This document shows, piece by piece, positions 28,716 through 49,975 of a stretch of 64,000 bases of DNA (its first letter is position 1; each line of letters starts with the position of its first letter). The position numbers and the translations under genes were made by a program. The notes under the pieces are model-generated. The model was not told the DNA's origin, did no database searches, and saw nothing but the letters and a program-made list of their open reading frames with translations. The stretch is from a virus. Where the stretch lies: the IMG/VR virus record IMGVR_UViG_3300025652_000002. One strand, written 5' to 3'.

Positions 28716-29244
28716 AAACGATATCTGGTTCATTTCAGATACTCACTTTCAACACACTAACATCCTGAAGTACTCTAAGTCTCGTGCTGCGTTGTTCAAC
28801 AATACAAAGCAGATGGATGAGGTGATGATTGATAACTGGAACAAGACTATCAAGCCAGAGGATAAAGTGTATCACCTCGGTGATGTTACTTTTGGGAGTA
28901 AGGAGTACTATGCAGACAACATCCACCCACGGTTGAACGGTAAGAAGCGTTTGATTGTAGGGAACCACGATAACATCAAGTTCTTTGCTGAACGTAACCT
29001 GTTCCAGAAGATCATGTTGTGGCGTGTTTTTAGTGACCCTGAGTACCCGTTCCTGTTTTCTCACGTCCCTGTCTTCCAGAGGGAGATAGATGACCGAGTA
29101 AAACAACCTAACGCCAAGAACATTCATGGCCACTTCCATGATGACCTACCTCCAACAAAGAACCATTTCTGTGTCTGTGTTGAGCAGATTAACTTTAAAC
29201 CTATCCATATTGAGGAAATTAAACATGAAGTGTCCAAACTGTAA
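28702..29244 (+). CDS. calcineurin-like metallophosphoesterase
   Basis: ISDTHFQH, YHLGDVTFG and IVGNHDN motifs. The listed start at 28678 is TTG. GTG at 28702 sits 8 nt after aaggag. Confidence 0.55.
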   Translation: MSSFRNDIWFISDTHFQHTNILKYSKSRAALFNNTKQMDEVMIDNWNKTIKPEDKVYHLGDVTFGSKEYYADNIHPRLNGKKRLIVGNHDNIKFFAERNLFQKIMLWRVFSDPEYPFLFSHVPVFQREIDDRVKQPNAKNIHGHFHDDLPPTKNHFCVCVEQINFKPIHIEEIKHEVSKL

Positions 29245-29515
29245 AGTAGAATTAACCGGAATTATCGACCAAGACGTAGAGGGTAAGATAGATATTAAAC
29301 TGAAAGTTAAACCCAAACTGTCTCAGGTTAAGGTAAAGTCGCAGCCGCTTGGCTTTTACATCTACAAGGGAGAGGGCTTAAATACACGGTATCTTGGCAC
29401 AGACTTAAATTTCCACAAGACCATGATGACAGACTTTACCCCTTATCTATCAAAACCTTACGCTGATAGGTTGGTTGATAATCTGCACAAAAAGGAAAAG
29501 AAGGTTCAACAGTAA
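29225..29515 (+). CDS. Zn-ribbon protein
   Basis: MKCPNCKVEL. ATG 29225 after gagga. Confidence 0.4.
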   Translation: MKCPNCKVELTGIIDQDVEGKIDIKLKVKPKLSQVKVKSQPLGFYIYKGEGLNTRYLGTDLNFHKTMMTDFTPYLSKPYADRLVDNLHKKEKKVQQ

Positions 29516-29805
29516 TGAAAGTCAAAGAGCTAATCAACATCTTAAAGACCCTACCACAGGAGGTAGAGGTGGTTATGCAGTTAGGCCAAGAAGGTAACTA
29601 CTATGAAGCCCTTTGGAGTGAACCCGCTCTCAAAACAGCTGATGGTTACCAAGAAGACGGTTATGGCTATAGTGATTGTATCTTCCGAGACCCTGAACTT
29701 ACTCTCGAAGAATACAACGAAGAAACAGAAATCTTCGATGACCCTTACGAAGTCATGGAAGAGTGGCTTGAGTATGTTGCATCACCAAAAGTGGTTGTGC
29801 TATGA
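29515..29805 (+). CDS. hypothetical protein
   Basis: ATGA overlap. Confidence 0.45.
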   Translation: MKVKELINILKTLPQEVEVVMQLGQEGNYYEALWSEPALKTADGYQEDGYGYSDCIFRDPELTLEEYNEETEIFDDPYEVMEEWLEYVASPKVVVL

Positions 29806-29984
29806 ACGGCCAAGGACAACCACTACCTTTAGTGTCTATCCATCAACAATCAGATGGGTGGCGTATCGAAGTTAACAACCGGAGCTACAGCTGGAATCAC
29901 AACGAACCAGACTTGGGTGTTTTCGCACTACAGGTCTTTCTTTCTGACTTGGGCTTCAACACAGAACTAGTAGAGGAATACTAA
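29802..29984 (+). CDS. hypothetical protein
   Basis: ATGA overlap. Confidence 0.4.
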   Translation: MNGQGQPLPLVSIHQQSDGWRIEVNNRSYSWNHNEPDLGVFALQVFLSDLGFNTELVEEY

Positions 29985-30904
29985 TGGACTATGTAAGATT
30001 TCTTTCACTATCCCGTATGGGAAAGGCTGAGGTTGAGGGGATTGAGGCAGGAACCTGCCACGTTTTCCCTAAGCTAGATGGTACCAATGCCTCCCTATTT
30101 TGGGATGATGCAAACTACGGGTTAGGTGCAGGGTCTCGTAACCGAAAACTCTCTGTTGACGCTGACAATGCTGGTTTCCTGAACCACATGAAGGACCACC
30201 CGACTGCTAACGAGTTGGTAAAGTCTTTCTCCGAGTGGAACATTTTTGGTGAGTGGCTTGTACCCCACAGCCTAAAGAGTTACCGTGAAGAAGCTTGGCG
30301 TCAGTTCTACATCTTCGACGTCTGGGATCAAAACAAAGAGTGCTACCTTCACTACGATGAGTACAACGCTGCTCTTTCCCCTATTCTCCAGTCAGTTCCT
30401 TGCAACGACATTAAGATCATTCCGCCTATGGCGATTGTGACTAATGGTGATGCAATCAAGTTCCAGCATCTTGCTGAACAGAACACCTACATGATTGAAG
30501 ACGGTAAGGGTTGTGGTGAAGGGGTTGTTATCAAGAACTACAGCTATGTCTCTAAGTTCGGTAACTATCAGGCTGCAAAGCTTGTAACAAACCTATTCAA
30601 AGAAGTCAATGCCGAAGCCTTCGGACCTCGTGAGATCAACCAAGAAGTCGTTGAACAACTGATTGCCGAAGCCTACGTAACAAAGGGCCGAGTCGAAAAG
30701 ATTGTTCACAAGATCGAAGATGAAATGGGTCAGAAGTTCGACTCAAAGTCTATTCCACGGCTACTCAACTCTGTCTACCATGACATTATTGTTGAAGAGT
30801 CTTGGGAGTTCATTAAGAAGTTCAAGCAACCAACAGTAAACTATAAACTTCTGCAGCGGTATGTTATCATGCAGATCAAGACAGTATCACAGGAGTTATT
30901 TTAA
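29984..30904 (+). CDS. ATP-dependent RNA ligase, Rnl2-like (possibly a polynucleotide ligase)
   Basis: Motif I FPKLDGTNASL (K-x-D-G-T-N as in Rnl2). Motif IV EGVVIKN. Motif V AAKLV. Confidence 0.55.
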   Translation: MDYVRFLSLSRMGKAEVEGIEAGTCHVFPKLDGTNASLFWDDANYGLGAGSRNRKLSVDADNAGFLNHMKDHPTANELVKSFSEWNIFGEWLVPHSLKSYREEAWRQFYIFDVWDQNKECYLHYDEYNAALSPILQSVPCNDIKIIPPMAIVTNGDAIKFQHLAEQNTYMIEDGKGCGEGVVIKNYSYVSKFGNYQAAKLVTNLFKEVNAEAFGPREINQEVVEQLIAEAYVTKGRVEKIVHKIEDEMGQKFDSKSIPRLLNSVYHDIIVEESWEFIKKFKQPTVNYKLLQRYVIMQIKTVSQELF

Positions 30905-36830: not shown

Positions 36831-37271
36831 ATGGAACCTAAAAATGATTCCCCACCAGAGGCCCCGGTAAAACGTGGGAGAGGTCGCCCCAAAGGCACCT
36901 TCACTACCCCTGACTGTGTCCGTAATAAGGTCCGAGAAGGTGGTGGTAAGAACGGTGGAGCAAGGAAGGCAGCAGGTCGTCCCAAAGGCTCTAAGAACAT
37001 CTACTCCCACGAGTCAGTAAAGAAGCTTCAAGACCTAAAGTTCGACCCTATTGAAAAGATGGTAGCCGAGTATGAGGCCATTACAGAGGTCATAGAGAGT
37101 GGCGAAGTAAGGATCGGTTCAGGAGCCTACTCCCAGCTTATTGCTACCAAGGCTGTTCTAATCAACAACCTTATGCAGTATGGCTATAAGAAGATTCCTG
37201 AGAGAACAGAAACAGAAGAAATCAACAAGAAGCCGATTGCTATTACCTTGGCACGGCGTAAAGAGGAATAA
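36831..37271 (+). CDS. putative terminase small subunit with AT-hook DNA-binding motifs
   Basis: Two RGRPKG / GRPKGS AT-hooks. Immediately upstream of the large terminase. Confidence 0.45.
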   Translation: MEPKNDSPPEAPVKRGRGRPKGTFTTPDCVRNKVREGGGKNGGARKAAGRPKGSKNIYSHESVKKLQDLKFDPIEKMVAEYEAITEVIESGEVRIGSGAYSQLIATKAVLINNLMQYGYKKIPERTETEEINKKPIAITLARRKEE

Positions 37272-37276
37272 CCTAA

Positions 37277-38614
37277 ATGACAGAGATTGCCCTACATGAG
37301 GCTCAGTCAGATGTTATTGGAGACCTGTTTTTAGATAACGTTTGTCGTTACGCGGTAGTGAATGCCAGCCGTGGCCTTGGTAAGTCCTACATGGGCGCAA
37401 CCGCTGCGGGGATCGCTGTCCAAGAGTTAATGGAGTTAGATGAGAGTGTTCCTAACAAGAACGTTGCTCTTATTGCTCCTACCTACAGTCAAGCCATTGA
37501 CATTTACTTTCCTCTCTTAGCGTATCAGCTAGGACTAGAGTCCTTCTGCACTAAGAGTTCTCGAACAGCGGGCACCTTCTGGTTCCCTAACAACGTCCAA
37601 CTCAAGATTTGGTCCTATGAAGCCTCAGAACGTATGCGAGGCACAGGCCAGTACTTTGTAGTAGCCGATGAGGTTACTTCTTGGAAGGGCGCTGGGATGA
37701 ACCTTAAAGAGTCTTGGGAAAGTATTATCCAGCCCTGTGTGTCTACACGTTGGTCAAGGAAGAACGCCGTTAAGTGGGGCGCTCAACCGGGAAAGTCACT
37801 TATTATTAGCACACCAAAAGGCTATGACTATTTCTACGAAATGTATAACAGACAGGAAGTTGATGATGACTGGAAAAGCTACACCTACACCTACCGAGAC
37901 TCCCCTTATCTCGACGAAGACGAAATCAATCGAGTCAAGTCTACACTTGATCCTCTCAAGTTTGCTAGAGAATATGAAGCCTCCTTTGAGGACTCTGGAA
38001 ACAACGTCTTTTACTGCTTCAACAGAAAAGAGCACATTTCTAACGACCTACCTTATTTCGAAGCGGGTGAAGATGTTCACATTGCGATTGACTTTAACGT
38101 GGGTATTATGGCAAGTGTGGCTTTTGCGTTGCGTGGTGGACAAGTCCACATCCTCGACGAGTTCCAAGGACACCCAGACACCGAAAGTCTAGCTAAGGAC
38201 CTCTATGCAAAATACAAAGGGCATAAGATTATTTCTTACCCTGACCCTAGTGGTAGAGCACGTAAGACCTCTGCTGCTGTAGGGATTACTGACTTTAAGA
38301 TTCTAGAGAGTCCTCCTTATAGGATTCAGACTAGAGCACACCAAAAGGCCCCTCCGATCATTGACTCGGTAGCCGCAGTAAACAAGAAGTTTAAGAACGC
38401 CAACGGTGACATTGATATGTTTGTTCACCCTCGTTGCGTAAACACAATTCGTTCACTAGAGAGAACTCAGTGGACCGAAACTAACCCTGATACTGCTACT
38501 ATCGATAAGAAAGAGGGAGTAGAACACTGGTCTGACGGTATCCGTTATGCTATTGAGTATCTCTTCCCTATTCGTTCTGGTACGATTAACACAGCGAGAG
38601 GGTTTAGTTTCTAA
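37277..38614 (+). CDS. terminase large subunit
   Basis: Walker A NASRGLGKS. Walker B YFVVADEV. Nuclease-domain acidic motifs VHIAIDFNVG, ILDEF. Confidence 0.85.
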   Translation: MTEIALHEAQSDVIGDLFLDNVCRYAVVNASRGLGKSYMGATAAGIAVQELMELDESVPNKNVALIAPTYSQAIDIYFPLLAYQLGLESFCTKSSRTAGTFWFPNNVQLKIWSYEASERMRGTGQYFVVADEVTSWKGAGMNLKESWESIIQPCVSTRWSRKNAVKWGAQPGKSLIISTPKGYDYFYEMYNRQEVDDDWKSYTYTYRDSPYLDEDEINRVKSTLDPLKFAREYEASFEDSGNNVFYCFNRKEHISNDLPYFEAGEDVHIAIDFNVGIMASVAFALRGGQVHILDEFQGHPDTESLAKDLYAKYKGHKIISYPDPSGRARKTSAAVGITDFKILESPPYRIQTRAHQKAPPIIDSVAAVNKKFKNANGDIDMFVHPRCVNTIRSLERTQWTETNPDTATIDKKEGVEHWSDGIRYAIEYLFPIRSGTINTARGFSF

Positions 38615-38632
38615 TCATAAAGGAAAACTAAA

Positions 38633-39202
38633 ATGTCCATTATTGGAAGAGTAGGTAGAGCCGCTGTTAAGAGGTTTGGCCGAGGAGCCGCTAGAGGAGG
38701 TGCTATGAGCGCCGCCCAGAAACGAGCCTTGGCTAAAGCTGTTAAAGCTTCTGCCTTAGCCCGTACAAAGAACGCTGGAGCAACAGTTGCTAAAGGAGCC
38801 TCTCGACGGGTTGCTAAAAAGGCTGCTCGTGCCTCCGCTATTAAGAATACCGAATCCCTAGCTTTAAGACGAGTCACTAGGGGCTTCAAGATGAGTGGCC
38901 TTCGTCGTGTTGACAGTGCTCAGTTTAGCGGCACTACTGGGCGTGCTTTAAAGAAGGCTTCGTATAGTGCCCGTCTAGCTAGTTCTAGGGCACAGTATGT
39001 ACAATCCTCTGTTGCTAACAGGGTGGGTCAAAAGGCCCTTGGTGTTGGCGTCACTGGTAACGTTATGAGACGCCGCTACTCTGACCTCACTACAGGTGAG
39101 AATGTTCGTCGTAACATTTCACGGTATCTTAAAGTTGCTATCCCTGTAAACGCCACTGTAGGTACTGCCTACTACACGAATATGTCAAGAAACAAAATAT
39201 AA
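38633..39202 (+). CDS. highly basic Ala/Lys/Arg-rich protein (paralog 1)
   Basis: AAQKRALAKAVKASALARTKNAGATVAKGASRRVAKKAARASAI. Confidence 0.55.
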   Translation: MSIIGRVGRAAVKRFGRGAARGGAMSAAQKRALAKAVKASALARTKNAGATVAKGASRRVAKKAARASAIKNTESLALRRVTRGFKMSGLRRVDSAQFSGTTGRALKKASYSARLASSRAQYVQSSVANRVGQKALGVGVTGNVMRRRYSDLTTGENVRRNISRYLKVAIPVNATVGTAYYTNMSRNKI

Positions 39203-39213
39203 GGATACCCCCG

Positions 39214-39813
39214 ATGCTTAAAAGACTCATAGCCAAAAAGCTTGGCCGAAGAATTGGACGGAGTGCCGCTACTGGCGTCCGAAGTGCTGCCCAAAAACGG
39301 GCCTTGATGAAAGCTGTTAAGGCTTCTGCCTTGGCCCGCTCTAAGACCGTTGCTAGGTCTGGGGTAGGTCGTGTAGCCGCTGTTGGTGTTGCCGCCACTA
39401 CAGCTACCGTTGCTGTCAATGCTGCAACTCGACGTAAGGCAAACAACCCAAGAAACAAGAGTATGGCTGTGGCCCAACTTAACCGAGGCACTACCTTTGC
39501 AAGAGTTACTGCAAGAGGTCTCGGCGATGTTGCTAAGGCTAAGGTAGCGACTACTGTTGCTGTTGCACGAGGGGACTTGAACCCCGTTGTAGGCAACGCT
39601 ATGGTAGGGGCTGTTTCTCTTCGTGCCCTTGCGAGGGTCACTACTTCTAGTGCAGCAACCCGTGGTAACGTTAATCGGGCAAGAGCAAACAACGCTCGCA
39701 GTGGAGCTTCCCAAATGAAAGAGGGGCTTCAGGCCCTAGCACGGAACGCTGGCACTCTAGCAAGTTATTCTCGTGCCACTCGCCCTTTAACTAACTATCT
39801 CAACAATAAATGA
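39214..39813 (+). CDS. highly basic Ala/Lys/Arg-rich protein (paralog 2)
   Basis: AAQKRALMKAVKASALARSKTVARSGVGRVAAVGVAATTA. Same N-terminal architecture as 38633. Confidence 0.55.
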   Translation: MLKRLIAKKLGRRIGRSAATGVRSAAQKRALMKAVKASALARSKTVARSGVGRVAAVGVAATTATVAVNAATRRKANNPRNKSMAVAQLNRGTTFARVTARGLGDVAKAKVATTVAVARGDLNPVVGNAMVGAVSLRALARVTTSSAATRGNVNRARANNARSGASQMKEGLQALARNAGTLASYSRATRPLTNYLNNK

Positions 39814-39828
39814 TATGAGGGCTAAGAA

Positions 39829-40140
39829 ATGGCTGCTTATGAATTCAACCTAGACACCTCTAGCCCTCGTTATGAGGTTACTCTTGAGAGAATAGGTCCT
39901 CAAGGTCCTGCTGGCCCCGCTGGAAGTGCTGGTTGGTTAACCTTCGCTACAGCCTTCTCCTCTACTCCGACCTTGACTGCCACCTTAGTTTCTGGCGAAG
40001 TATACACCTACCTTTATAACAACGATACCTTTACTCTGTACAGGCATATCACAACCTCTAGTGATACCTTCTACACAGACTTCGACGGAACAACCCTCTC
40101 AGGACTTGTCTCCAGTAAACAAATAACAATAACAATCTAA
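39829..40140 (+). CDS. small virion-associated hypothetical protein
   Basis: ATG. Sits within the structural block. Confidence 0.5.
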   Translation: MAAYEFNLDTSSPRYEVTLERIGPQGPAGPAGSAGWLTFATAFSSTPTLTATLVSGEVYTYLYNNDTFTLYRHITTSSDTFYTDFDGTTLSGLVSSKQITITI

Positions 40141-40155
40141 TTTGGAGAACAAACA

Positions 40156-42087
40156 ATGGCTTTTGTATCTACTGACTGGTCCATCGCTGCTAACGGAGAT
40201 ATTCGTTACATTGGTGATGACCACAATGGGGCGGCTCCGTCCTATTCTACTGTAATCGACTTTCACCGCGCTTTGCAAGACTTCGCGGATGATGCTGCTG
40301 CTGCTGGTGATGACCTGCTGGACATCTCTAGCTTAACACCTTCTGATCGTTCGACTGACAACATTATTACGCTGCTTAACGGCTTTAACATTAATGCTAC
40401 GGGAAGTGAACACCTCTTTGACGGTACTATCGTACAGACAGGTGGCAACGACGTTTATGATGGTATCGTTAACTTCGGCAACCCTGAAGTAGAACTTGGT
40501 ATCGTCCAAAATGGCGGTGTCCTCTCTGATGACTGGTGGAACCTTGGTGGTTTTCACGGTGCAGTCACAGGCGGATCTACCTCTACTCTTGTTGACACTG
40601 GCGCTGGCTGGACTGTTGATGCGTGGGTTGGCTATGTCGTTCGTAACGTAACTGACGGGTCTCAGGGCCTAGTAACTTCTAACACTGCCGATACTCTGAC
40701 TATTGATGGTCTGATGTATGGCGGTACTACTAATACTAACACGGCTGCTGCTGTGTATTACATTGCTAAAGGCTTGAATGCTGATGCAAACAACGGTATT
40801 TCACACCGCTTCATGGTACCTGTTATTGTTGGTGGAACCCCTACAGATAACCGTAAGATCATTGGCTTTGCTCGTACCTTTGGTAAGACACACTCCGAGT
40901 TTACCATTAACTCAACCAACAACGGTAACAACGTTCTAGCTGTGTCTGACTCTTCGGACCTTAACAACGCCACACCTCCTAATGATGTATACAACTCTGT
41001 TGGTACTGTCTTTGTTGCTCCTTTCGACTCCATCGTAAACCTTACTACTGGTTACATTGGCTTGGACGTTAACAACGATACAGTCAATGAGTTCTTCTGG
41101 TCTCAGTGGGATCGTGGTACAGCCTCTATTAACCAGTTCTATGAGTACACTAAGTATGTAACTCGCTACAAGGCGGAAACAGGCACCCTTTACGGTATTG
41201 CTGGCGATCTGTTCCGTGGTGTTACTACTGAGCTTACTGTTACTGGTATTGGTGGTACTTGGGTTGAACCCGAGGCAGTCTCTTGGACAGGCGGTACTGG
41301 TCAGCTCTTTGCTGTAGATAACACTGCTGGTGCTTCTACTACGAAGGTATGGATTCAGGTCTTGACAGGCTCAGCCCCTACTTCCGGTACACTCACTGGT
41401 GCAGGCGGTGCTACGGCTACTGTGACCGCTGCTACGGCTCGTGCGCTTAGCTATCCCTTCTCTGGTCAGTCTACTGGCTCGGCTCTGATTGGTGGCTATG
41501 GTGTTGGTATTGATACTAATGACCTTAGTGCTTCGGACTTGCTGCGTGCTCTTGACAACCTTACCTATCAGCCGCCTAACAACGTTTCTTTCTCTGTTGG
41601 TGGCCTAGTCATTGGCGAAGATACTGTCCTTGTTACTTCCGAAAGTGGTGGTACTATTAATAAGACACAACTGCTGTTGAATACTAGCTTGGTTACTGCT
41701 ACAGAGAACTCTGTTGTTACAACTGCACCTATTCCTACAGACACACCGTCTACTGGTACAATCCGTGTTGTAAACGATTCAGGCTTTGATGTACCATTGG
41801 TTTACACTTCTTTCTCTGGTAGCACGTTCACCCTCGATACAAACTATGTGTTTAACGGGACTAGTGAAACTGATGCTGCTACCGCTGGTAATGGTGTCTA
41901 TATCACCTACCTCGATAAAGTTGCAGGGGCTTCTACTGAAAGCTTCACTGTTGTTTATGACGCAGATCGTCCACTGTTTATCCGTGTTCGTGATGGTGGT
42001 GGTACTCCGATTAAGACATTTGAAACCACAGGTTCTATTGGTTCTGCTGGTGGTTCTACTACAGCAATCCGTACTTCTGACGAATAA
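40156..42087 (+). CDS. large structural protein (tail/spike-like, Gly/Thr/Asn-rich)
   Basis: 643 aa. Composition typical of fibre/spike proteins. Confidence 0.5.
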   Translation: MAFVSTDWSIAANGDIRYIGDDHNGAAPSYSTVIDFHRALQDFADDAAAAGDDLLDISSLTPSDRSTDNIITLLNGFNINATGSEHLFDGTIVQTGGNDVYDGIVNFGNPEVELGIVQNGGVLSDDWWNLGGFHGAVTGGSTSTLVDTGAGWTVDAWVGYVVRNVTDGSQGLVTSNTADTLTIDGLMYGGTTNTNTAAAVYYIAKGLNADANNGISHRFMVPVIVGGTPTDNRKIIGFARTFGKTHSEFTINSTNNGNNVLAVSDSSDLNNATPPNDVYNSVGTVFVAPFDSIVNLTTGYIGLDVNNDTVNEFFWSQWDRGTASINQFYEYTKYVTRYKAETGTLYGIAGDLFRGVTTELTVTGIGGTWVEPEAVSWTGGTGQLFAVDNTAGASTTKVWIQVLTGSAPTSGTLTGAGGATATVTAATARALSYPFSGQSTGSALIGGYGVGIDTNDLSASDLLRALDNLTYQPPNNVSFSVGGLVIGEDTVLVTSESGGTINKTQLLLNTSLVTATENSVVTTAPIPTDTPSTGTIRVVNDSGFDVPLVYTSFSGSTFTLDTNYVFNGTSETDAATAGNGVYITYLDKVAGASTESFTVVYDADRPLFIRVRDGGGTPIKTFETTGSIGSAGGSTTAIRTSDE

Positions 42088-42102
42088 CAAAAGGAAATAA
42101 TT

Positions 42103-43710
42103 ATGGCCGCTCCCATTTATACAACTGACCTAGTTGATATCACTACTGCTGAGACCGTCACAGGTTGGTCTGCCCTTGGGGGTGGCCAAGCTGGTCTCTC
42201 TGATGAAACTGATTACTTTATCGAAGGAACCCAGTGTGTTTCTAAGTCAGGCTTTACTGCTTCTACCCGTGGTATGATCTTCTCTGCTGGCGCTACTACT
42301 ATTGCTGCAGGGGACGCTGTCTTTGTGTGGTCTAAACAAAACAACCGTAACCTTATGGACCTCCAAGCTAATGGTGGTGCTCAGTTCCTTATTGGGGATG
42401 GCACCTCCGCTTTTGATCAGTTCTATATCGATGGTAGTGATAGTGAAGGCTCTGCCCTAGCTGGTTGGAGAAACTATGCTGTTGACCCTACTGCTACACC
42501 TTCTGCCACTACAGGCACTCCTGCTGCAACATCTTTCTTTGGTATGCAGTGGGCTATCCTTGGTGCTGGTTCTTTGAAGGGTTCACCTAATGGAATTGAT
42601 GTTGTCCGACACGGTCGTGAGCTAAGGGTGACAGATGGGGACTTGGCTAGTGGCTATGCAACCTTTGCTGGTGCTGCTGCCTTTGACTCCGCTACAACTC
42701 GCGCTTGGGGTCTCTTGACTCCTATTCAGGGTGGTAACCTTTTCCACGGCCACTTGGTCCTTGGTCAAGCAGGTGTTCCTGTTGACTTCCGAGATAGTAA
42801 CCGTTCTATCATCGTTCTTGATGACACCTTCCTTCCTTCCACCTTCAACGAGATTTCTATTGTTGATGCTGCTTCCAACGTAGAGTGGACAGGAATTACT
42901 CTTTCTCACCTTGGTACGACTTCCCCTACTGTTCTAAACTTGAATGTAGGAACCTTTGTTGGTAGAAACTGCCGCTTCTCTAGGGCAGGTATCACTACCT
43001 TTAGTTTGGGCCAGACCTGCACAGACTCCGCTTGGGAAATTTGTGGTCAGGTGGTTGCTGGAGGCGCTACTCTAACAAACAGTAGCATTTCTGGTTATGA
43101 AGGCGTGGCTAACACCTCTGCTATGCTTTATGCTGTTGCTGCTGATCCTGATGGTGAGCTTGATGGTATGTCCTTTGAAAAGGGGGTTGCTGCTACTCAT
43201 GCTATTGAATTCGGGGCCACTAGCCCTCTAACAATGACGCTACGTAACTGTGACTTCTCTGGTTATAACGCGGCTAACAATGTCAACGATAGTATGTTCC
43301 ACATTAAGCGAACTACAGGAACCGTTACGATTAACCTCGTTGGTTGTTCCACAGATTCCGCTTTCTCTTACCGTACTGATGGTGCAGCCGTGGTCTTTGT
43401 TATTGACCCTGTTACAACTCTCATTAAGGTTGTGGATGCTACAACTAAAGCAAACCTTGCAGGCTCTCGCGTTCTTATTCTTGCTGATGCGGGTGGACCT
43501 CTTGCCCAAGGTACTGTTATTATCTCCGGAGACACAGATAGCAATGGTGAGATCACCGACTCAAGGACTTTAGCAGCCAGCCAGCCAATCACAGGTCGTG
43601 TTCGACTTTCAACCACTCCCGGTAGTCTTTATAAGACAGGGGATGTAGTTGGTACAATTAACTCGCTGACAGGGTTTAGTACTACTGTTCAGCTTATCCC
43701 AGACGAGTAA
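42103..43710 (+). CDS. structural protein with beta-helix-like repeats (tailspike-like)
   Basis: Repetitive NCxFS / SISG / GxT periodicity. Confidence 0.5.
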   Translation: MAAPIYTTDLVDITTAETVTGWSALGGGQAGLSDETDYFIEGTQCVSKSGFTASTRGMIFSAGATTIAAGDAVFVWSKQNNRNLMDLQANGGAQFLIGDGTSAFDQFYIDGSDSEGSALAGWRNYAVDPTATPSATTGTPAATSFFGMQWAILGAGSLKGSPNGIDVVRHGRELRVTDGDLASGYATFAGAAAFDSATTRAWGLLTPIQGGNLFHGHLVLGQAGVPVDFRDSNRSIIVLDDTFLPSTFNEISIVDAASNVEWTGITLSHLGTTSPTVLNLNVGTFVGRNCRFSRAGITTFSLGQTCTDSAWEICGQVVAGGATLTNSSISGYEGVANTSAMLYAVAADPDGELDGMSFEKGVAATHAIEFGATSPLTMTLRNCDFSGYNAANNVNDSMFHIKRTTGTVTINLVGCSTDSAFSYRTDGAAVVFVIDPVTTLIKVVDATTKANLAGSRVLILADAGGPLAQGTVIISGDTDSNGEITDSRTLAASQPITGRVRLSTTPGSLYKTGDVVGTINSLTGFSTTVQLIPDE

Positions 43711-43714
43711 GTAA

Positions 43715-43933
43715 ATGACAACTGAACTTCAAAGAGAAATCACCCATCAAAACGTTGAGAAGCTTGTTTCCACTATCCGTGGAGAACGTGAAGCAAGAGA
43801 GGCGTTATACAAAAAGATCGTATTACTGGAACAACATGTTCAAATGTTAACAGGGCGGCTACAACAAGCTGAGTCTAATGCTCACGCCGCCTTAGCGATC
43901 GTCCGAAACATGAACGGAAGTTCAACAACATAA
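43715..43933 (+). CDS. small coiled-coil protein
   Basis: Heptad pattern. Confidence 0.45.
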   Translation: MTTELQREITHQNVEKLVSTIRGEREAREALYKKIVLLEQHVQMLTGRLQQAESNAHAALAIVRNMNGSSTT

Positions 43934-43948
43934 AGGAGGACAAGAACC

Positions 43949-45805
43949 ATGCCTATTTCAATTGATTGGGGTACGAAGGTTATCTCTATCCCTCGGTCTG
44001 ATATGATCCTGCTCCAATCTATGCCCACAGAAATCAGGGAACTTGACCTCAACTCTTTTCGGCTAGCCCTTAAGGATATCGAAGATAGTGATCTTGGTAT
44101 GACGCAAGACACGACACATAACCACGTTGCTCCTATTGGGGTTGGTGGTGTTACTCTTGCGCGGGTGGTAGAGATCATTAACAACTATACTGTGACCTTT
44201 GAAGATGGCCAGTACGCTGTAAACCTTTCTGGCGCTAACACAAACCTTGCCGACAAGGTGAACGTTAACCAAGTTTCTGTCCGCTCTGCTAACTCTGCGG
44301 GTCTTGTTCAGACTTCCGAGATTGAATACTCTTCTTTCCAGAACTCAGTTTCTCTTGACGTTGTTAATGGTGGGGCGGGTCAGGCTTACCCCTTAGGTAC
44401 AGCCCAGTTTCCTGTAAACAACCTTGCAGACGCTAAGTTCATTGCTCAACTTCGAGGCTTTGATACCATTAAGGTCAAAGGAGACTTTACCTTTGGGGTT
44501 GCGGATACTATTGATAACTTTGAGTTTATCGGTCAGTCCTTGACTAAAACACACATTGGCCTCACAAACGAGGCAGTAATTACTAACTGTATTTTCAGAG
44601 ACGCTACAATAAGTGGATTCTTGGATGGGGATAGTAACCTCATCGACTGTCGCCTTGAAGGGATCAACTACGTAGACGGTAACGTTACAGGGTGTGAAAT
44701 TGGTGTCGGGGATATCATTCTAAACGGTCAACTCGCGGTCCTTGTAAACTGCTACTCCGGTATTCCCGGGGGTCTTGCAAACCAGACTGCTACTATTGAC
44801 CTTGGTGGTGGGGGTACAGACCTTATTGTCCGTAACTACACAGGCGGTATGACGCTTAAGAACCACACCTTTGGCGATGATGACGTCTCCGTTGACATTC
44901 TCTCAGGCCAAATTGTCTTTGACGAGACTATCACCTCTGGAACCTACGTGGTACGAGGTGTAGGTAAAGTAGTCAACAACTCTTCAGGAACAGCTATTGT
45001 TAACGTAGAGGTGCTTGATAGCCAGAATATCAACAGAACTACCTTCACAGATGGAGGTGTTTACCTTACCCAAGGCTCTGCCTTTAGTACGGAAACCTAC
45101 CCTATCGGTACGCCTGCTAAGCCTGTAAACAACCTAACCACAGCTATTGCTATTGCTCAACGTGAAGGGCTTTCTAAGATTTTCTTGTCAGGCTTCTTTA
45201 CAGCCCTATCAACAGACGACCTCTCTGGTATTACTGTTGTCGGTGGTTCAGGCTCAGGTAACGTTCTCCTACTTCAGGCAGGAGTAACAACAGTTTCTTC
45301 GGGCTTTGAGAAGCTTATTATTGCTGGACAACTTGGGGGTCTCTCTCGAATTGTTAACTGTATCCTTGGGGTTAGTGGTCTCGGTGCCTTTACAGAGTGT
45401 GAAGGACGTGTTGTTGATTGTATCATCAATACTACTGCTGGTGTAACCCAAAAGACAACAGGGGCAGGAACTCTCTTTGACAACTGTAGTTTTATTACAC
45501 CAAACGACTTACAAGTAACCTTAGATGCTAACGGTAAGGCTTTCTCTCTAAGAAAGTGTACTGGTCACATCCTCATTGCAAACGGCACCTCTACGGAGGC
45601 TCAAGAAATAAACCTTCAAGGTGGCCGTCTTGAGATTGCTTCTAGTTGCACAGCAGGTGCTTTCTATGTCTCCGGTGATGCTGTTCTCACAGATAACTCT
45701 AACGGAACCACAGTAACTAACGTCTTGACTACAGGCAACCTAAACGTAGTAAATACAGGGGTACAGAAGGCTTCTCTTCTCATTCCTCATACAACTAACC
45801 TGTAA
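43949..45805 (+). CDS. right-handed beta-helix protein (tailspike/depolymerase-like)
   Basis: NCIFRDATISGFLDGDSNLIDCRLEGINYVDGNVTGCEIG-type coils. Confidence 0.5.
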   Translation: MPISIDWGTKVISIPRSDMILLQSMPTEIRELDLNSFRLALKDIEDSDLGMTQDTTHNHVAPIGVGGVTLARVVEIINNYTVTFEDGQYAVNLSGANTNLADKVNVNQVSVRSANSAGLVQTSEIEYSSFQNSVSLDVVNGGAGQAYPLGTAQFPVNNLADAKFIAQLRGFDTIKVKGDFTFGVADTIDNFEFIGQSLTKTHIGLTNEAVITNCIFRDATISGFLDGDSNLIDCRLEGINYVDGNVTGCEIGVGDIILNGQLAVLVNCYSGIPGGLANQTATIDLGGGGTDLIVRNYTGGMTLKNHTFGDDDVSVDILSGQIVFDETITSGTYVVRGVGKVVNNSSGTAIVNVEVLDSQNINRTTFTDGGVYLTQGSAFSTETYPIGTPAKPVNNLTTAIAIAQREGLSKIFLSGFFTALSTDDLSGITVVGGSGSGNVLLLQAGVTTVSSGFEKLIIAGQLGGLSRIVNCILGVSGLGAFTECEGRVVDCIINTTAGVTQKTTGAGTLFDNCSFITPNDLQVTLDANGKAFSLRKCTGHILIANGTSTEAQEINLQGGRLEIASSCTAGAFYVSGDAVLTDNSNGTTVTNVLTTGNLNVVNTGVQKASLLIPHTTNL

Positions 45806-45837
45806 TCTCCATCTGAGGATCGAGAAAGGAAAACATA

Positions 45838-46314
45838 ATGCCTAGAATTACCAATGAGGTAACGAGTCAGCCTATGGGCCGTTCTCGTATCACCTCCCCT
45901 TCTAAGGATTCTGTTACCGATAACGGTACAGCCCTTATTTCTATCGTAGATGGAGAACAAATCCAAATTACAATTACTCTCTCTTGGATGACAAGCCTCG
46001 CCTCTGCTACAGTTTTTGCTAAGATCGTAGAGGGAAATAATGACGGTCTAGGGACAGTCCCAAACACTGCTCAAGCGGCAGGAGTTGTTACTACCCTCCC
46101 TATTATCGATGTCAACCCAGCAGACAACACCTTCAATATTGTAATCCCTGAGACCCTAATCGATGGTTGGGCAGTGCAGCCTAACGCAGACTCACCAGTC
46201 TATGGTTTCATTGGCCTAGAAGTTGATGATGGTGGCGTCGGTGATGCTCGTCAGGTTTGGAAACCAATGCGTGGCCTTGTAGAGGTTCTGTACAGCCCTT
46301 CAGAGGCGGTATAA
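45838..46314 (+). CDS. structural hypothetical protein
   Basis: ATG. Confidence 0.5.
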   Translation: MPRITNEVTSQPMGRSRITSPSKDSVTDNGTALISIVDGEQIQITITLSWMTSLASATVFAKIVEGNNDGLGTVPNTAQAAGVVTTLPIIDVNPADNTFNIVIPETLIDGWAVQPNADSPVYGFIGLEVDDGGVGDARQVWKPMRGLVEVLYSPSEAV

Positions 46315-46317
46315 AAA

Positions 46318-47517
46318 ATGAGCACCTACGGCCTAACAGTTGAAAACAAAACCTATAACCTAACACTTTCTCCAACTGAGTTGACCGTAACCCTAGTCCC
46401 ACCGAGTGACTACGTTGTAAACATAGACAACCCAAACCTAGTAACCAGCATCGAGACCCAAGACTATAATGTTTCTCTTTCAAGGGTGGGTGCTCAAGGG
46501 GCTGATGCTGACCTTACAAACATAGACTATTTGGGTTTTGATCTAGCCTCCACCCACGAAGTTTTGGAAGGGGAACTAGCTTGGAACGTAGATGACGGAA
46601 CCCTAGACCTCGGTTTGGGTTTTGGGGTTGTGAACCAACTCGGTCAAGAGACCCATATCTATGTTAAGGCAAAAGAAGCTATCTCAAATGGAGAAGTGGT
46701 TTACGTTAGTGGCAGTCCCGGAAATAGTGGTAAGCTTGAAGTTTTAAAGTACATTGCCAATGCTACAATCGATGAACTCTATGTTTCAGGGGTTGCTACC
46801 CACGATATTGCCGTAGGTGACTTTGGCTACATCACTGTCTTTGGTGCTGTTAGAGGTCTACCTACAGATGGCGCACTACAAGGTGAAACTTGGGTTGCTG
46901 GTACTATCTTGTATGCTTCCCCTATTGTTGCGGGAGGTATGACAAACATTTTACCCGTTGCTCCAAACCAGAAAATCCCTGTAGCTATTGTTCTAAACCC
47001 TAGCCCAAATAACGGGGCTATCTTTGCAAGAGCACACGAACTCGGCTATCACTTAGGTGAACTGCATGACGTCAATATCTCGGATATCACAGATGGTGAA
47101 CTTATCCGCTGGGATGGTACAAGGTTTGTAAACAACACTCTTACTGAAGCAGGTATCCAACCCGCTGGTTCTTACTCTGTCGTAGGTCACACCCATCCCT
47201 TTTCTGATATAACAGACACCCCAACAACCCTAGCAGGGTATGGTATTACAGATGGTGGTAGCGGGTCTGGCGCAACAGAATTAAACGGGCTTAGTGACGT
47301 CACTGTGGCTGTTCTACAAGAAGGTGATGCCTTACTCTTTGATAGCGCTTCTGGTGACTTTCAAAACTATCAACTCACAACTACTCGCTTGGGAGATATA
47401 GACAACACTAACAGAGCCGATGGTTCTGTCCTTGTTTATAACGGTACAACCACTAAATACGTTGCAACCAACTCCCTAGAAAACCCAAACTTAACAGTAA
47501 TCGGAGGTAGCTTTTAA
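46318..47517 (+). CDS. tail fibre protein
   Basis: Fibre-like composition. ATGA junctions with its neighbours. Confidence 0.5.
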   Translation: MSTYGLTVENKTYNLTLSPTELTVTLVPPSDYVVNIDNPNLVTSIETQDYNVSLSRVGAQGADADLTNIDYLGFDLASTHEVLEGELAWNVDDGTLDLGLGFGVVNQLGQETHIYVKAKEAISNGEVVYVSGSPGNSGKLEVLKYIANATIDELYVSGVATHDIAVGDFGYITVFGAVRGLPTDGALQGETWVAGTILYASPIVAGGMTNILPVAPNQKIPVAIVLNPSPNNGAIFARAHELGYHLGELHDVNISDITDGELIRWDGTRFVNNTLTEAGIQPAGSYSVVGHTHPFSDITDTPTTLAGYGITDGGSGSGATELNGLSDVTVAVLQEGDALLFDSASGDFQNYQLTTTRLGDIDNTNRADGSVLVYNGTTTKYVATNSLENPNLTVIGGSF

Positions 47518-48641
47518 TGGCAACCAAAATTATTATCAAAAAGAGCAGCACTGCTGGTGCCGTTCCCCTCTCCGGTAATCTGGATCAGGGTGAAGTCGCG
47601 GTCAACCTAGCTGATCGTAAAATTTACACAAAGGATAACTCCAACGCTATCGTCTCCCTTGGTGGCGCTTACGTTGACTCTGTGGCCCCATCCACTCCCG
47701 CCGAAGGTGACATTTGGTATGACACTGTTGCTAACGCACTAAAAGCTTATAACGGTTCTGCTTGGATCGCTGCAGGGGTAAGCTCCCTCGCCGCTCTTTC
47801 TGATGTAACTATCACCACAGTTGCTTCTGGGGAAGTGCTTAAGTATGACGGTGCAGGTTGGATTAACAACACCCTAGCAGAGGCAGGTATTGCAGCAACA
47901 GGGGATATCCCAACAAACAACAACCAGCTTACTAACGGTGCTGGCTATATCACAGGGATTACTGGGGAAAACCTCCAAAGCCTGAATGATGTAAACATCA
48001 CCTCTATTGCTTCTGGTGAACTCCTGAAGTGGACAGGTACCGAGTGGGTCAATAACACCTTAGTTGAAGCTGGAGTTGCTTCCGTTGCTTCTGTCCCAAC
48101 AAACAACAACCAACTTACTAACGGTGCAGGGTATATCACTACCTATACAGTCACCCAAGGAGACGTTACAGCACATCAAGCTGCACTCTCTATCACAGAG
48201 TCTCAAATCAGTGACCTTCAGGCTTACCTGACTGCTGAAGCGGATACTCTTGCTACGGTTATGTCTCGTGGTGCTACTACTGCAACCGCTATGACTATCA
48301 CAAACGCCACGGCCTCCACTACTACAGGTACAGGCGCTCTTAAGGTAACAGGCGGCGCTGGTATCGGTGGAAACGTAAACGTTGGTGGTAATGTCGTCGT
48401 TGCAGGTGACTTGACAGTAAACGGTACAACCACTTCTGTTAACTCCAACACAGTAAACATCGGTGACTCTATTATCACCCTTAACTCTGATGAGGTAGGT
48501 GTTCCTTCGCAGAACGCTGGCTTTGAGGTTGAGCGTGGTACGTCAGCTAATGTTTCCTTCTTCTGGAATGAAGCTAACGATGCTTGGGATATGGGAGACT
48601 ATAACCTTCAAAACGTCGTTATCGACGGTGGTACTTACTAA
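47517..48641 (+). CDS. tail fibre protein (shares N-terminal domain with 48680)
   Basis: MATKIIIKKSSTAGAVPLSGNLDQGEVAVNLADRKIYTK vs MATKIIPKKSTVAAKVPLVGDLDQGELAINLTDKKIYSK. Confidence 0.55.
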   Translation: MATKIIIKKSSTAGAVPLSGNLDQGEVAVNLADRKIYTKDNSNAIVSLGGAYVDSVAPSTPAEGDIWYDTVANALKAYNGSAWIAAGVSSLAALSDVTITTVASGEVLKYDGAGWINNTLAEAGIAATGDIPTNNNQLTNGAGYITGITGENLQSLNDVNITSIASGELLKWTGTEWVNNTLVEAGVASVASVPTNNNQLTNGAGYITTYTVTQGDVTAHQAALSITESQISDLQAYLTAEADTLATVMSRGATTATAMTITNATASTTTGTGALKVTGGAGIGGNVNVGGNVVVAGDLTVNGTTTSVNSNTVNIGDSIITLNSDEVGVPSQNAGFEVERGTSANVSFFWNEANDAWDMGDYNLQNVVIDGGTY

Positions 48642-48679
48642 CACACTAACCCTTACTCTATAGTAAAAGGATAAGCCTT

Positions 48680-49957: not shown

Positions 49958-49975
49958 CTCGAAAGGAAAACGAAA

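What the first reader, a model, noticed from the sequence alone, without database searches (positions are those of the whole stretch)
38633..39813. Tandem paralogous, extremely basic Ala/Lys/Arg-rich proteins directly downstream of the large terminase
Two adjacent genes (189 and 199 aa) share an N-terminal segment (…AAQKRALAKAVKASALAR…). Both are dominated by Ala, Arg, Lys, Val, Thr and Gly, with pI probably above 11, and neither has a recognisable enzymatic motif.

Their position is where a portal gene normally sits, after terminase and before tail genes. Their histone/protamine-like composition suggests packaged DNA-condensing or ejection proteins. They could alternatively be scaffolds for the terminase-DNA complex.

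The minus strand of this GC-skewed low-complexity region also produces long spurious ORFs.
Basis: seen in the sequence. Interest (0 to 1): 0.55.

Follow-up and report, generated by a model that had tools for sequence, protein, structure and literature searches.

The report
Motif-tagged basic phage head proteins
Two real, extremely positively charged genes sit just after the DNA-packaging enzyme of an uncultured marine phage; they carry a 20-residue helix "tag" also found on unexplained virion proteins of mycobacteriophage Patience, so they are most likely proteins loaded into the phage head with the DNA.

Summary
B1 (38633-39202, 189 aa) and B2 (39214-39813, 199 aa) are real + strand genes directly after TerL. 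Both have pI 12 and net charges of +37 and +35. Similarity is confined to about 34 N-terminal residues; otherwise they belong to different subfamilies.

The shared segment is a portable motif ([MLF][TS]xAxKxALxKAxxASAxxR). In relatives of this Naomviridae-like phage, zero to five such genes follow TerL (40 loci: 0 in 11, 1 in 7, 2 in 11, 3 in 10, 5 in 1). The nearest relative with sequence beyond TerL lacks the cassette precisely.

The same motif heads tandem basic genes after the portal gene in mycobacteriophages Patience and Barnyard and in metagenomic contigs with up to 12 copies. The marine and actinophage motif profiles match with 98% probability. The Patience motif proteins were detected in purified virions, and gp15 is probably one of the three major bands.

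Best reading (confidence 0.5): late, helical polycations loaded into the head with the DNA, analogous to T4 internal proteins. Nothing was measured on this phage, and the link rests on a short motif, composition and gene context. A NUMOD3 (DNA minor-groove helix) resemblance holds only for some relatives. Function is unknown in all databases searched.

The parts
38633..39202 (+). B1: 189-aa polycationic protein (net +37, pI 12). It belongs to a narrow orthologous family with a conserved C-terminal box.
   Evidence: ORF; composition. 20 homologues at 45-59% identity and alignment A1. Only 24 hits among 1.84 billion representative proteins. AF2 model: pLDDT 73, all-helical plus a small hairpin.
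39214..39813 (+). B2: 199-aa polycationic protein (net +35, pI 12). It is a different subfamily from B1.
   Evidence: No homologue other than itself in the 5.8-billion-protein search. Distant relatives in L006/L007 and L073. Single-sequence AF2 model is all-helical, pLDDT 64.5.
38705..38770 (+). Conserved tag helix of B1 (residues 25-46, MSAAQKRALAKAVKASALARTK).
   Evidence: HMM hit at 25-46. 20.7 bits with a leave-out HMM, against at most 4.6 bits in 300 shuffles. AF2 helix 27-46.
39280..39345 (+). Conserved tag helix of B2 (residues 23-44, RSAAQKRALMKAVKASALARSK).
   Evidence: HMM hit at 23-44. 17.9 bits against at most 6.9 bits in shuffles. 7 synonymous and 2 non-synonymous codon differences from B1.
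38639..38677 (+). B1 N-terminal basic amphipathic helix (residues 3-15, IIGRVGRAAVKRF).
   Evidence: AF2 helix 3-15. Similar N-termini recur across array members.
39217..39267 (+). B2 N-terminal basic amphipathic helix (residues 2-18).
   Evidence: AF2 helix 2-18.
39373..39426 (+). B2 Ala/Val/Gly/Thr hydrophobic segment (residues 54-71, VAAVGVAATTATVAVNAA), about 10 residues after the tag.
   Evidence: Kyte-Doolittle 18-residue mean is 1.63, equal to the segments after the tag in Patience gp13, gp14 and gp15 (1.55-1.65).
39068..39124 (+). B1 invariant box (residues 146-164, RRxYxDLTxGENVRRNxxR).
   Evidence: Invariant columns R146 R147 Y149 L152 T153 G155 E156 N157 V158 R159 R160 N161 R164 across 21 sequences.
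38621..38624 (+). AGGA ribosome-binding site of B1.
   Evidence: Upstream sequence printed.
39201..39205 (+). AAGGA ribosome-binding site of B2, overlapping the B1 stop codon.
   Evidence: Upstream sequence printed.
37277..38614 (+). Large terminase subunit. The array is attached to its 3' end.
   Evidence: Pfam Terminase_6N and PHROG 2. 67% identity to DSS3_PM1 TerL.
36831..37271 (+). Probable small terminase (146 aa, two GRP AT-hook-like motifs); start of the same late gene string. It is context, not part of the array.
   Evidence: Position and weak AT_hook/DUF5681 hits. Conserved upstream of TerL in L005 and L006. The assignment is inferred.
39138..39714 (-). Two overlapping antisense ORFs (39138-39692, 184 aa; 39172-39714, 180 aa). 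They are artefacts and not part of the system.
   Evidence: Listed. The + frame is the conserved one.

Best explanation
B1 and B2 are late-expressed, alpha-helical polycations belonging to a widespread but unnamed class of phage proteins. The class is defined by a single roughly 20-residue Ala/Lys helix ([MLF][TS]xAxKxALxKAxxASAxxR). These genes sit as variable tandem arrays inside the DNA-packaging/head gene module.

Most likely sequence of events:
1. They are made together with terminase.
2. They are incorporated into the head. Because terminase threads naked DNA through the portal, loading must happen at the procapsid stage. The shared helix, with or without the N-terminal amphipathic helix, would be the common loading or DNA-contact element.
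3. They lie among the packaged DNA, where their +35 to +37 charges neutralise phosphates.
4. They leave with the DNA at infection. B2's hydrophobic segment possibly engages the membrane.

Shown: gene reality, composition, the motif, array variability, module position, and virion presence of the Patience motif proteins.
Inferred: virion presence of B1/B2, DNA contact, what the helix does, and ejection.
For: 1. Real, conserved genes in a tight late string with terS and terL. Spacers are 18 and 11 nt, each gene has its own RBS, and no terminator-like site lies between TerL and B1.
2. The motif occurs once per protein in 68 of 83 distinct array proteins from TerL-clade contigs. Degenerate copies are visible by eye in most of the rest.
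3. Array size varies from 0 to 5 in 40 non-redundant loci. L005 shows a clean presence/absence of the B1-B2 cassette. The array stays next to TerL whatever module follows.
4. The same motif heads tandem basic genes directly after the portal in several lineages: Patience gp11, 13, 14, 15, 17 (HMM E 1e-7 to 3e-10); Barnyard gp13-15; L101 with 6 copies (portal 60% identical to Patience); and L091 with at least 12 copies. Motif genes are also scattered among scaffold, capsid and neck genes in L089 and L099.
5. The marine and actinophage motif profiles match: hhalign 98%, E 1.6e-13.
6. Patience gp10-gp18 are listed as virion proteins by particle HPLC-MS/MS, and gp15 'likely' is one of the three major SDS-PAGE species (PMC4324244). 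The 2.4 A capsid study models the major capsid protein, a minor capsid protein and gp4, and never mentions gp15 (PMC11965321). That fits a non-shell location.
7. B2 shares the two-part layout (tag, then a hydrophobic Gly/Ala/Val segment) and a net charge in the range of the Patience proteins.
8. The tag is portable. It is fused to a PHROG 1106 domain just upstream of TerL in L052 and in P0034/36/38/39, and to an acidic domain in L099.
9. [quoted passage not shown]
Against: - There is no direct evidence for this phage or any member of its clade. No cultured relative carries the genes: tblastn of B1, B2 and two other subfamilies found nothing in 50,697 phage records. Low-complexity masking may contribute to that result.
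- The link to Patience is a short, compositionally biased motif plus context. Outside it the proteins are unrelated.
- B1 lacks the hydrophobic segment (KD 0.74).
- In some marine members the motif is C-terminal, unlike a classical cleaved N-terminal targeting signal.
- The DSS3 phages and 11 of 40 related loci do without the genes, so any role is accessory.
- Very basic proteins can co-purify with particles. The internal location of gp15 is inferred from its absence in capsid models, not shown.
Confidence: 0.5

Rival explanations
1. They are cytoplasmic DNA-coating proteins. They would bind replicated or concatemeric phage DNA (or host DNA) late in infection, for example to compact or shield it before packaging, and would not be part of the virion.
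For: Extreme positive charge. Late co-expression with terminase. A NUMOD3-like helix in some relatives: 6 of 37 motif windows, best E 4.2e-5. An orthologous pair links that form to the B1/B2 form.
Against: The motif-bearing Patience proteins are found in particles. Protein-coated DNA would obstruct translocation through the portal (established mechanism; inference). B1, B2 and all 16 actinophage motifs fail to hit NUMOD3.
Confidence: 0.15
2. They are membrane-active proteins that are not packaged. Possible roles are lysis accessory (disruptin- or holin-regulator-like), superinfection exclusion or envelope remodelling, using the cationic amphipathic N-terminus and the Gly/Ala hydrophobic segment.
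For: N-terminal amphipathic basic helices. Borderline transmembrane-like segment in B2 and in the Patience, L091 and L101 proteins. Weak glycine-zipper Pfam hits in some relatives. Weak PHROG 'membrane protein' cross-hits for the Patience proteins.
Against: The holin and endolysin genes lie elsewhere (57023-57969). B1 and many other members lack a hydrophobic segment. The genes sit in packaging/head modules in four lineages. Patience homologues are particle-associated. A virion-borne, membrane-inserting ejection role is compatible with the best explanation rather than with this rival.
Confidence: 0.12
3. They are injected anti-defence effectors. The charge and the tag would serve only for delivery, as with T4 IPI*. 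The variable bodies would each neutralise a host nuclease or sensor, which would explain the rapid turnover of array content.
For: Hyperplastic arrays with many subfamilies and singletons. The tag is fused to unrelated domains. Precedent in T4 (PMC3012670). The cultured relatives of this phage family have dU-substituted DNA, which is a defence-related trait (PMC8323127).
Against: No similarity to any known anti-defence protein was seen in Pfam or PHROGs; PADLOC-type searches were not run. Most bodies are low-complexity polycations rather than folded inhibitors, apart from the predicted core of B1. This is a sub-case of the best explanation as far as packaging goes.
Confidence: 0.12
4. They are decayed or domesticated DNA-binding modules of homing endonucleases that invaded the conserved terminase region and now persist as selfish or neutral passengers.
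For: NUMOD3 is a homing-endonuclease DNA-binding motif and is weakly detected in some members. The cassette is present or absent next to TerL. TerL of DSS3_VP1 carries an intron with an endonuclease. The TerS-TerL gap also collects accessory genes.
Against: No nuclease domain was found in any member. Several subfamilies are under clear purifying selection with invariant non-motif residues. The proteins are abundant virion components in Patience. The inserted genes in L005 and L006 are not endonucleases.
Confidence: 0.05
5. They are not genes: chance ORFs in a low-complexity, GC-richer stretch.
For: Low-complexity composition, and long ORFs on both strands.
Against: RBS before each ORF, a 7:2 synonymous to non-synonymous ratio in the shared motif, 20 homologues with invariant positions, and a confident AF2 core.
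Confidence: 0.01

Closest known systems
Mycobacteriophage Patience gp11, gp13, gp14, gp15, gp17 (and Barnyard gp13-15): 'virion proteins' of unknown function between the portal and protease genes (PHROGs 28158, 31200, 32101, 32594, 38146)
   Same: One copy of the same helix motif (profile-profile match 98%). Net charge +30 to +46. Tandem array in the packaging/head module. A hydrophobic Gly/Ala/Val segment about 10 residues after the motif (in B2). No annotated function.
   Different: The hosts are actinobacteria, and the arrays follow the portal rather than TerL. In these proteins the motif is always at the extreme N-terminus. Sequence outside the motif is unrelated. B1 has no hydrophobic segment but has its own invariant C-terminal box. 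Virion presence is shown only for Patience.
Bacteriophage T4 internal proteins IPI, IPII, IPIII and the polymorphic IP loci of T-even phages
   Same: Tandem, highly variable sets of small head-internal proteins that share only a short terminal sequence. They are loaded into the head before DNA, contact the DNA and are injected (PMC3012670).
   Different: There is no sequence similarity. The T4 signal is an N-terminal sequence used for the scaffolding core, whereas here the motif can be N- or C-terminal and processing is unknown. Packaging of B1 and B2 is not shown.
NUMOD3 motif (PF07460) of GIY-YIG/HNH homing endonucleases; from memory, the minor-groove alpha-helix of I-TevI
   Same: An 18-residue basic helix pattern, h-[ST]-x-x-x-K-x-x-[IL]-S-x-A-x-K-G-[KR]. 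Array members of the L047/L048/L061 type hit the model on exactly this element.
   Different: Scores are below the Pfam cut-off for whole proteins. B1, B2 and the actinophage proteins do not hit. There is a single copy, no nuclease domain, and the rest of each protein is polycationic.
Adenovirus core protein VII, protamines and other viral DNA-condensing polycations
   Same: Arg/Ala/Lys-rich, very high pI, and presumed charge neutralisation of encapsidated DNA.
   Different: No homology: zero Pfam hits at E<=10. The virus lineage and the packaging mechanism (motor-driven into a preformed capsid) are different.
Minor head proteins encoded next to the portal (SPP1 gp7 / Mu F family)
   Same: Encoded beside packaging genes and carried in the head.
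   Different: No similarity. Patience has a separate MuF-like gp20, and L101 has a separate Phage_Mu_F gene.

Membership tests
Patience-type motif-tagged virion proteins (unnamed; PHROGs 28158/31200/32101/32594/38146) | One copy of the helix motif [MLF][TS]xAxKxALxKAxxASAxxR | tested here: met
   With an HMM built without B1, B2 or Patience sequences, B1 scores 20.7 bits and B2 17.9 bits; shuffle maxima are 4.6 and 6.9. Patience proteins score 22-30 bits. hhalign of A2 against A3: 98%, E 1.6e-13.
Patience-type motif-tagged virion proteins | Polycationic composition (net charge about +30 to +46; D+E only a few per cent) | tested here: met
   B1 +37 and B2 +35, against +30 to +46 for the Patience proteins.
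Patience-type motif-tagged virion proteins | Hydrophobic Gly/Ala/Val segment shortly after the motif | tested here: inconclusive
   B2 residues 54-71 give KD 1.63, like gp13-15 (1.55-1.65). B1 has none (maximum 0.74). Barnyard gp13 and gp14 also show no such segment by eye, so it may not be defining.
Patience-type motif-tagged virion proteins | Tandem genes inside the terminase-portal-capsid module, on the same strand | tested here: met
   B1 and B2 directly follow TerL. Arrays follow the portal in Patience, Barnyard, L091 and L101.
Patience-type motif-tagged virion proteins | Physical presence in purified virions | not testable with these tools
   Shown only for Patience (PMC4324244). No cultured phage carries B1/B2-type genes.
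T4-type internal proteins | Sequence homology to the IP families or to the T4 capsid-targeting sequence | tested here: not met
   No Pfam or PHROG hit of that kind for B1 or B2.
T4-type internal proteins | A short shared terminal sequence on otherwise diverse proteins in a polymorphic tandem locus | tested here: met
   One motif per protein across at least 23 sequence clusters. Copy number 0-5, and up to 12 elsewhere. This is an analogy, not homology.
T4-type internal proteins | Loaded into the prohead, processed by the prohead protease and injected | not testable with these tools
   No experimental data exist for this clade.
NUMOD3 (PF07460) | Score above the Pfam gathering cut-off (20.4 bits) on the motif | tested here: not met
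   B1 and B2 give no hit at E<=10. Relatives reach 15-19 bits as whole proteins. 6 of 37 isolated marine motif windows hit, best E 4.2e-5, and 0 of 16 actinophage windows. The 73%-identical pair L048_8257 and L061_2322 aligns the NUMOD3-like form with the B1/B2-like form, so relatedness is plausible but membership is not established.
NUMOD3 (PF07460) | Association with a homing-endonuclease catalytic domain | tested here: not met
   No nuclease domain in B1 or B2, or in any array member scanned.
Histone-like, protamine or adenovirus protein VII families | Profile match to the corresponding Pfam families or solved structures | tested here: not met
Holins, glycine-zipper membrane proteins | Profile match, or an unambiguous transmembrane helix | tested here: inconclusive
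   B1 and B2 have no hits. Some relatives give sub-threshold Gly-zipper hits. The B2 segment is borderline (KD 1.63). No dedicated transmembrane predictor was available.

The most novel reading that the evidence does not exclude
The roughly 20-residue helix is a general, cross-lineage head-loading tag. It would be shared by phages of Proteobacteria and Actinobacteria. Any protein carrying it would be loaded into the procapsid and delivered into the host with the DNA, whether it is a polycation, a PHROG 1106 domain or an acidic domain. The variable arrays next to terminase or portal would then be a cargo locus comparable to the T4 IP locus, but far more widespread and previously unrecognised.
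Probability: 0.2. Interest if true: 0.8.

Novelty: new variant of a known kind. Interest (0 to 1): 0.6.

Why it matters
What tailed phages carry inside the head besides DNA is poorly known outside T4, P22/T7-like and jumbo phages.

If correct, this result does three things.
- It gives a simple sequence signature for finding candidate internal or ejected proteins in metagenomic phages.
- It offers an explanation for a block of unexplained virion proteins in Patience, including one probable major virion band.
- It points to a possible portable loading tag, which could be tested and might be usable for packaging foreign proteins.

It also shows that the terminase/portal junction is a hot spot for fast-evolving accessory genes in an abundant marine phage group related to the dU-DNA Naomviridae.

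Tried and rejected
Searches that found nothing or little:
- Pfam and PHROG scans of B1 and B2: nothing.
- tblastn of B1, B2 and two other subfamily members against 50,697 phage records: no match. Low-complexity masking may contribute.
- The 5.8-billion-protein search with B2: only B2 itself.
- B1 family profile against PDB sequences: nothing.
- The afdb50 library was unavailable.
- Motif profile against PDB: only designed or unrelated helices, and I-TevI was not recovered.
- The fusion family (tag plus PHROG 1106 domain): no Pfam or PDB hit.
- Literature searches for NUMOD3 in virion proteins, or for polycationic internal phage proteins of this kind: nothing relevant.
- Supplementary spectral counts for Patience are not held.

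Ideas rejected:
- These replace a portal: the portal is at 58180-59751.
- They belong to the downstream fibre module: arrays precede different modules in different contigs.
- The genes inserted between TerS and TerL in relatives are homing endonucleases: they are not.
- I looked for the dU-DNA enzymes of DSS3_VP1 (dCMP-deaminase-like Dcd, HD-family Dtm). None was found among the ORFs scanned, but not all ORFs were scanned.
Full report
**1. The observation**

B1 is 38633-39202 (189 aa) and B2 is 39214-39813 (199 aa), both on the + strand. They follow a 445-aa protein that matches Terminase_6N and PHROG 2, terminase large subunit, at E 2e-31.

Composition is as described. Ala, Arg, Lys, Val, Gly, Ser and Thr dominate. 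There are 41 and 38 basic residues against 4 and 3 acidic ones. Computed pI is 12.0 for both, and net charges are +37 and +35.

BLASTP aligns only B1 13-46 with B2 12-44 (25/34 identical, E 1e-8). The two proteins therefore share a module rather than being full-length paralogues.

Both are real genes:
- Each has an AGGA-type ribosome-binding site.
- The spacers are 18 and 11 nt.
- Across the 21 codons of the shared motif, B1 and B2 differ at 7 synonymous and only 2 non-synonymous codons.
- B1 has 20 homologues, with 27 invariant columns in the alignment.

The long minus-strand ORFs at 38611-38889, 39138-39692 and 39172-39714 are antisense artefacts.

**2. The phage**

The window comes from an uncultured siphovirus. 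One contig carrying B1 and B2 is 72,324 bp (JGI 3300007276).

Its TerL is 67% identical to those of the roseophages DSS3_PM1 and DSS3_VP1, family Naomviridae. That family has dU-substituted DNA (PMC8323127).

The window also encodes:
- a single-subunit RNA polymerase, a family A DNA polymerase, a primase-helicase and ribonucleotide reductase;
- PhoH, distal-tail and J-like tail proteins, a holin and an endolysin;
- a portal at 58180-59751.

In the DSS3 phages TerL is followed directly by PhoH. Relative to them, window 38615-50551 is extra. It contains B1 and B2, then about 10.7 kb of fibre-like genes.

**3. A variable array attached to TerL**

IMG/VR holds at least 229 relatives of this TerL; the 80 loci kept are 77-100% identical.

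In 40 non-redundant loci with at least 2.5 kb after TerL, the number of consecutive ORFs with K+R >=18% and D+E <=8% was 0 in 11 loci, 1 in 7, 2 in 11, 3 in 10 and 5 in 1.

The modules that follow differ between contigs. Some have a 147-150-aa acidic protein plus large fibres, others have 208-aa and 334-aa proteins. The array therefore goes with TerL, not with the fibres.

In L005 the TerL stop is followed 25 nt later by the homologue of the window's 103-aa gene, with 78% nucleotide identity continuing through the 643-aa gene. B1-B2 is thus a clean 1.2-kb presence/absence cassette.

The proteins fall into at least 5 recurrent subfamilies and many singletons.
- B1 belongs to a narrow family: 24 hits at E<=0.001 among 1.84 billion representatives, 18 of them below 1e-10. 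It has an invariant box, RRxYxDLTxGENVRRN.
- B2 has only distant relatives, in L006/L007 and L073.

**4. The shared element**

Nearly every array protein carries one copy of a gapless motif, [MLF][TS]xAxKxALxKAxxASAxxR. My HMM finds it in 68 of 83 distinct proteins, and degenerate forms are visible in most others.

It is near the N-terminus in most proteins, usually after a basic amphipathic helix. In some it is at the extreme C-terminus.

In the window it occurs only in B1 and B2. It is far above composition: 20.7 and 17.9 bits with a leave-out HMM, against at most 6.9 bits in 300 shuffles.

Variants of the form LSEAHKKAISRALKGRKR hit Pfam NUMOD3, but below its cut-off: 15-19 bits as whole proteins, and 6 of 37 isolated motif windows with best E 4.2e-5. 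A 73%-identical pair aligns that form with the B1/B2 form.

B1, B2 and all actinophage versions do not hit NUMOD3, and a PDB profile search did not recover I-TevI. I treat NUMOD3 as a lead for DNA contact, not as an established membership.

**5. Structure**

AlphaFold2 with the 21-sequence alignment gives B1 a mean pLDDT of 73, rising to 85-92 over about residues 60-165. The model has:
- an N-terminal helix at 3-15 and the motif helix at 27-46;
- further helices at 51-75, 100-124, 127-139 and 154-187;
- a small hairpin between residues 80 and 93.

B2 folded alone is all-helical at pLDDT 64.5. It has a hydrophobic Ala/Val/Gly/Thr stretch at residues 54-71 (KD 1.63).

**6. The link to experimentally studied phages**

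A DNA pattern for the motif found contigs outside the TerL clade.
- L091 has TerL, then a portal, then at least 12 tandem basic genes. Each starts with the motif followed by a Gly/Ala-rich hydrophobic segment.
- Its portal is 67% identical to that of mycobacteriophage Patience.
- In Patience, gp11, gp13, gp14, gp15 and gp17 begin with the motif (22-30 bits) followed by such a segment. They lie between portal gp8 and the protease/MuF genes and have net charges of +30 to +46.
- Barnyard gp13-15 show the same pattern.
- L101, whose portal is 60% identical to Patience's, has six such genes.
- In L089 and L099 motif genes are scattered among scaffold-like, SU10-type capsid and neck genes.

Profile-profile comparison of the marine and actinophage motif alignments gives 98% probability and E 1.6e-13.

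PHROGs list each Patience protein as its own family of unknown function.

**7. What is known about the Patience proteins**

Pope et al. analysed purified particles by HPLC-MS/MS.
- Table 1 lists genes 10-18 as virion proteins.
- The text states that, apart from gp9, all genes that are insertions in the canonical structural operon are present in particles.
- It also states that gp15 (32 kDa) likely is one of the three major SDS-PAGE species, with the capsid and major tail proteins (PMC4324244).

A 2020 cryo-EM paper tried gp15 as a capsid accessory protein, but its model did not fit the density (PMC7150772).

The 2.4 A structure models the major capsid protein, a trimeric minor capsid protein and gp4. 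It does not mention gp15, and it notes an unmodelled small helix under the local three-folds (PMC11965321).

An abundant virion protein that is not part of the ordered shell is what an internal protein would look like. That is my inference, not a published result.

**8. Mechanism**

The best-supported reading is that B1 and B2 are accessory head-internal polycations.

- Shown: late-operon position, charge, helical propensity, the conserved tag, array plasticity, the head-module context in four lineages, and virion presence of the Patience members.
- Inferred: that B1 and B2 are in the virion; that they are loaded at the procapsid stage; that the tag is the common loading or DNA-contact element; and that they exit with the DNA.

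Procapsid-stage loading is required because terminase moves naked DNA through the portal. T4 internal proteins enter through the scaffolding core (PMC3012670).

As arithmetic only: 72,324 bp carries 144,648 phosphates. One hundred copies each of B1 and B2 would neutralise about 5% of them, and 400 copies each about 20%.

The tag also occurs on non-polycationic bodies. Examples are a PHROG 1106 domain just upstream of TerL in L052 and in P0034/36/38/39, and an acidic domain in L099. This favours a loading or docking role over simple charge.

**9. Rivals and limits**

Four rivals remain possible: cytoplasmic DNA coating, unpackaged membrane-active proteins, injected anti-defence effectors, and endonuclease-derived passengers. 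They are weighed in the rival list above. 'Not a gene' is rejected.

The main weaknesses are:
- no data exist from this clade;
- the homology rests on a short, biased motif plus context;
- B1 lacks the hydrophobic segment;
- the motif is C-terminal in some members;
- the genes are dispensable in relatives.

**10. Novelty and score**

Basic internal head proteins are a known kind. This motif-defined class has no annotation in Pfam or PHROGs. It links marine Naomviridae-like phages to actinophage virion proteins, and I found no description of it in the literature searched.

I rate it a new variant of a known kind, with interest 0.6 and confidence 0.5 in the packaged-polycation reading.

Noticed in passing
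window 38615-50551: Relative to the cultured Naomviridae (DSS3_PM1, DSS3_VP1), where TerL is followed by PhoH, this phage has about 12 kb of extra genes. They are B1 and B2, then proteins of 103, 643, 535, 72, 618, 158, 399, 374, 425 and 191 aa. Several of these hit tail-fibre PHROGs. Its J-like protein is 1144 aa, against about 2575 aa in the DSS3 phages.
   Followed up: partly
window 39829-40140: A 103-aa protein with a short collagen-like run (GPQGPAGPAGSAG) lies directly before three large Thr/Gly/Ser-rich proteins (643, 535 and 618 aa). Those three have no Pfam or PHROG match.
   Followed up: no
L091 158-5478 (minus strand): At least 12 tandem motif-tagged basic genes lie directly after a portal gene that is 67% identical to the Patience portal. 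This is the largest array seen.
   Followed up: partly
L052 201-848; proteins P0034, P0036, P0038, P0039: A recurrent 211-222-aa protein fuses the N-terminal amphipathic helix and the tag to a PHROG 1106 domain of unknown function. In L052 its stop overlaps the TerL start.
   Followed up: partly
L099 6429-6767: The tag (MTAARRAAIRKWQAAGAKAH) is fused to an acidic C-terminal domain. The motif is therefore not restricted to polycations.
   Followed up: no
L099 8386-9249: A type IB topoisomerase gene (Top1B_N_bact, Topoisom_I) sits inside a head-gene region, between motif-tagged small genes and the scaffold-like and SU10-type capsid genes.
   Followed up: no
L005 886-1774; L006 3204-4309: In close relatives, 1-1.2 kb of accessory genes is inserted between the small and large terminase genes. 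The genes include a 198-213-aa protein with a hydrophobic segment and small proteins. Both flanks of TerL are therefore insertion hot spots.
   Followed up: partly
window 36831-37271: The probable small terminase has two AT-hook-like GRP motifs (RGRGRPKG, GRPKGSKN) and a weak DUF5681 hit.
   Followed up: no
window 8297-10489: A single-subunit (T7/N4-type) RNA polymerase is encoded in a phage with siphovirus-type tail genes.
   Followed up: no
window 20845-21366 and 13623-14021: A free-standing SegE-like GIY-YIG homing endonuclease lies just upstream of the primase-helicase gene. A separate endonuclease VII gene is also present.
   Followed up: no
window 28299-30904: A possible RNA-repair cluster: an AAA_33/zeta-toxin-like kinase, a metallophosphoesterase (sub-threshold hit) and an RNA ligase.
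   Followed up: no
window 14014-14466: A nucleoside 2-deoxyribosyltransferase-like gene. No dCMP-deaminase or HD-hydrolase homologue of the DSS3_VP1 dU pathway was found among the ORFs scanned, so whether this phage has dU-DNA is open.
   Followed up: partly
motif windows of Patience gp11, P0039 and one member of A2: Repeated weak Pfam hits (E 0.06-0.1) to DUF7645 fall on the tag region. This may be a related, uncharacterised family.
   Followed up: no
L036 12595-12975, L047 4727-5158, L053 2711-3091: A 126-143-aa basic protein (MGRSNPRLWESAKK...) with a weak DUF5872 hit often ends the array but lacks the tag. A related small family (MAKDPKLEKVGVSGYNKPKRTP...) sits upstream of TerL in L006, L093 and L096.
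   Followed up: no
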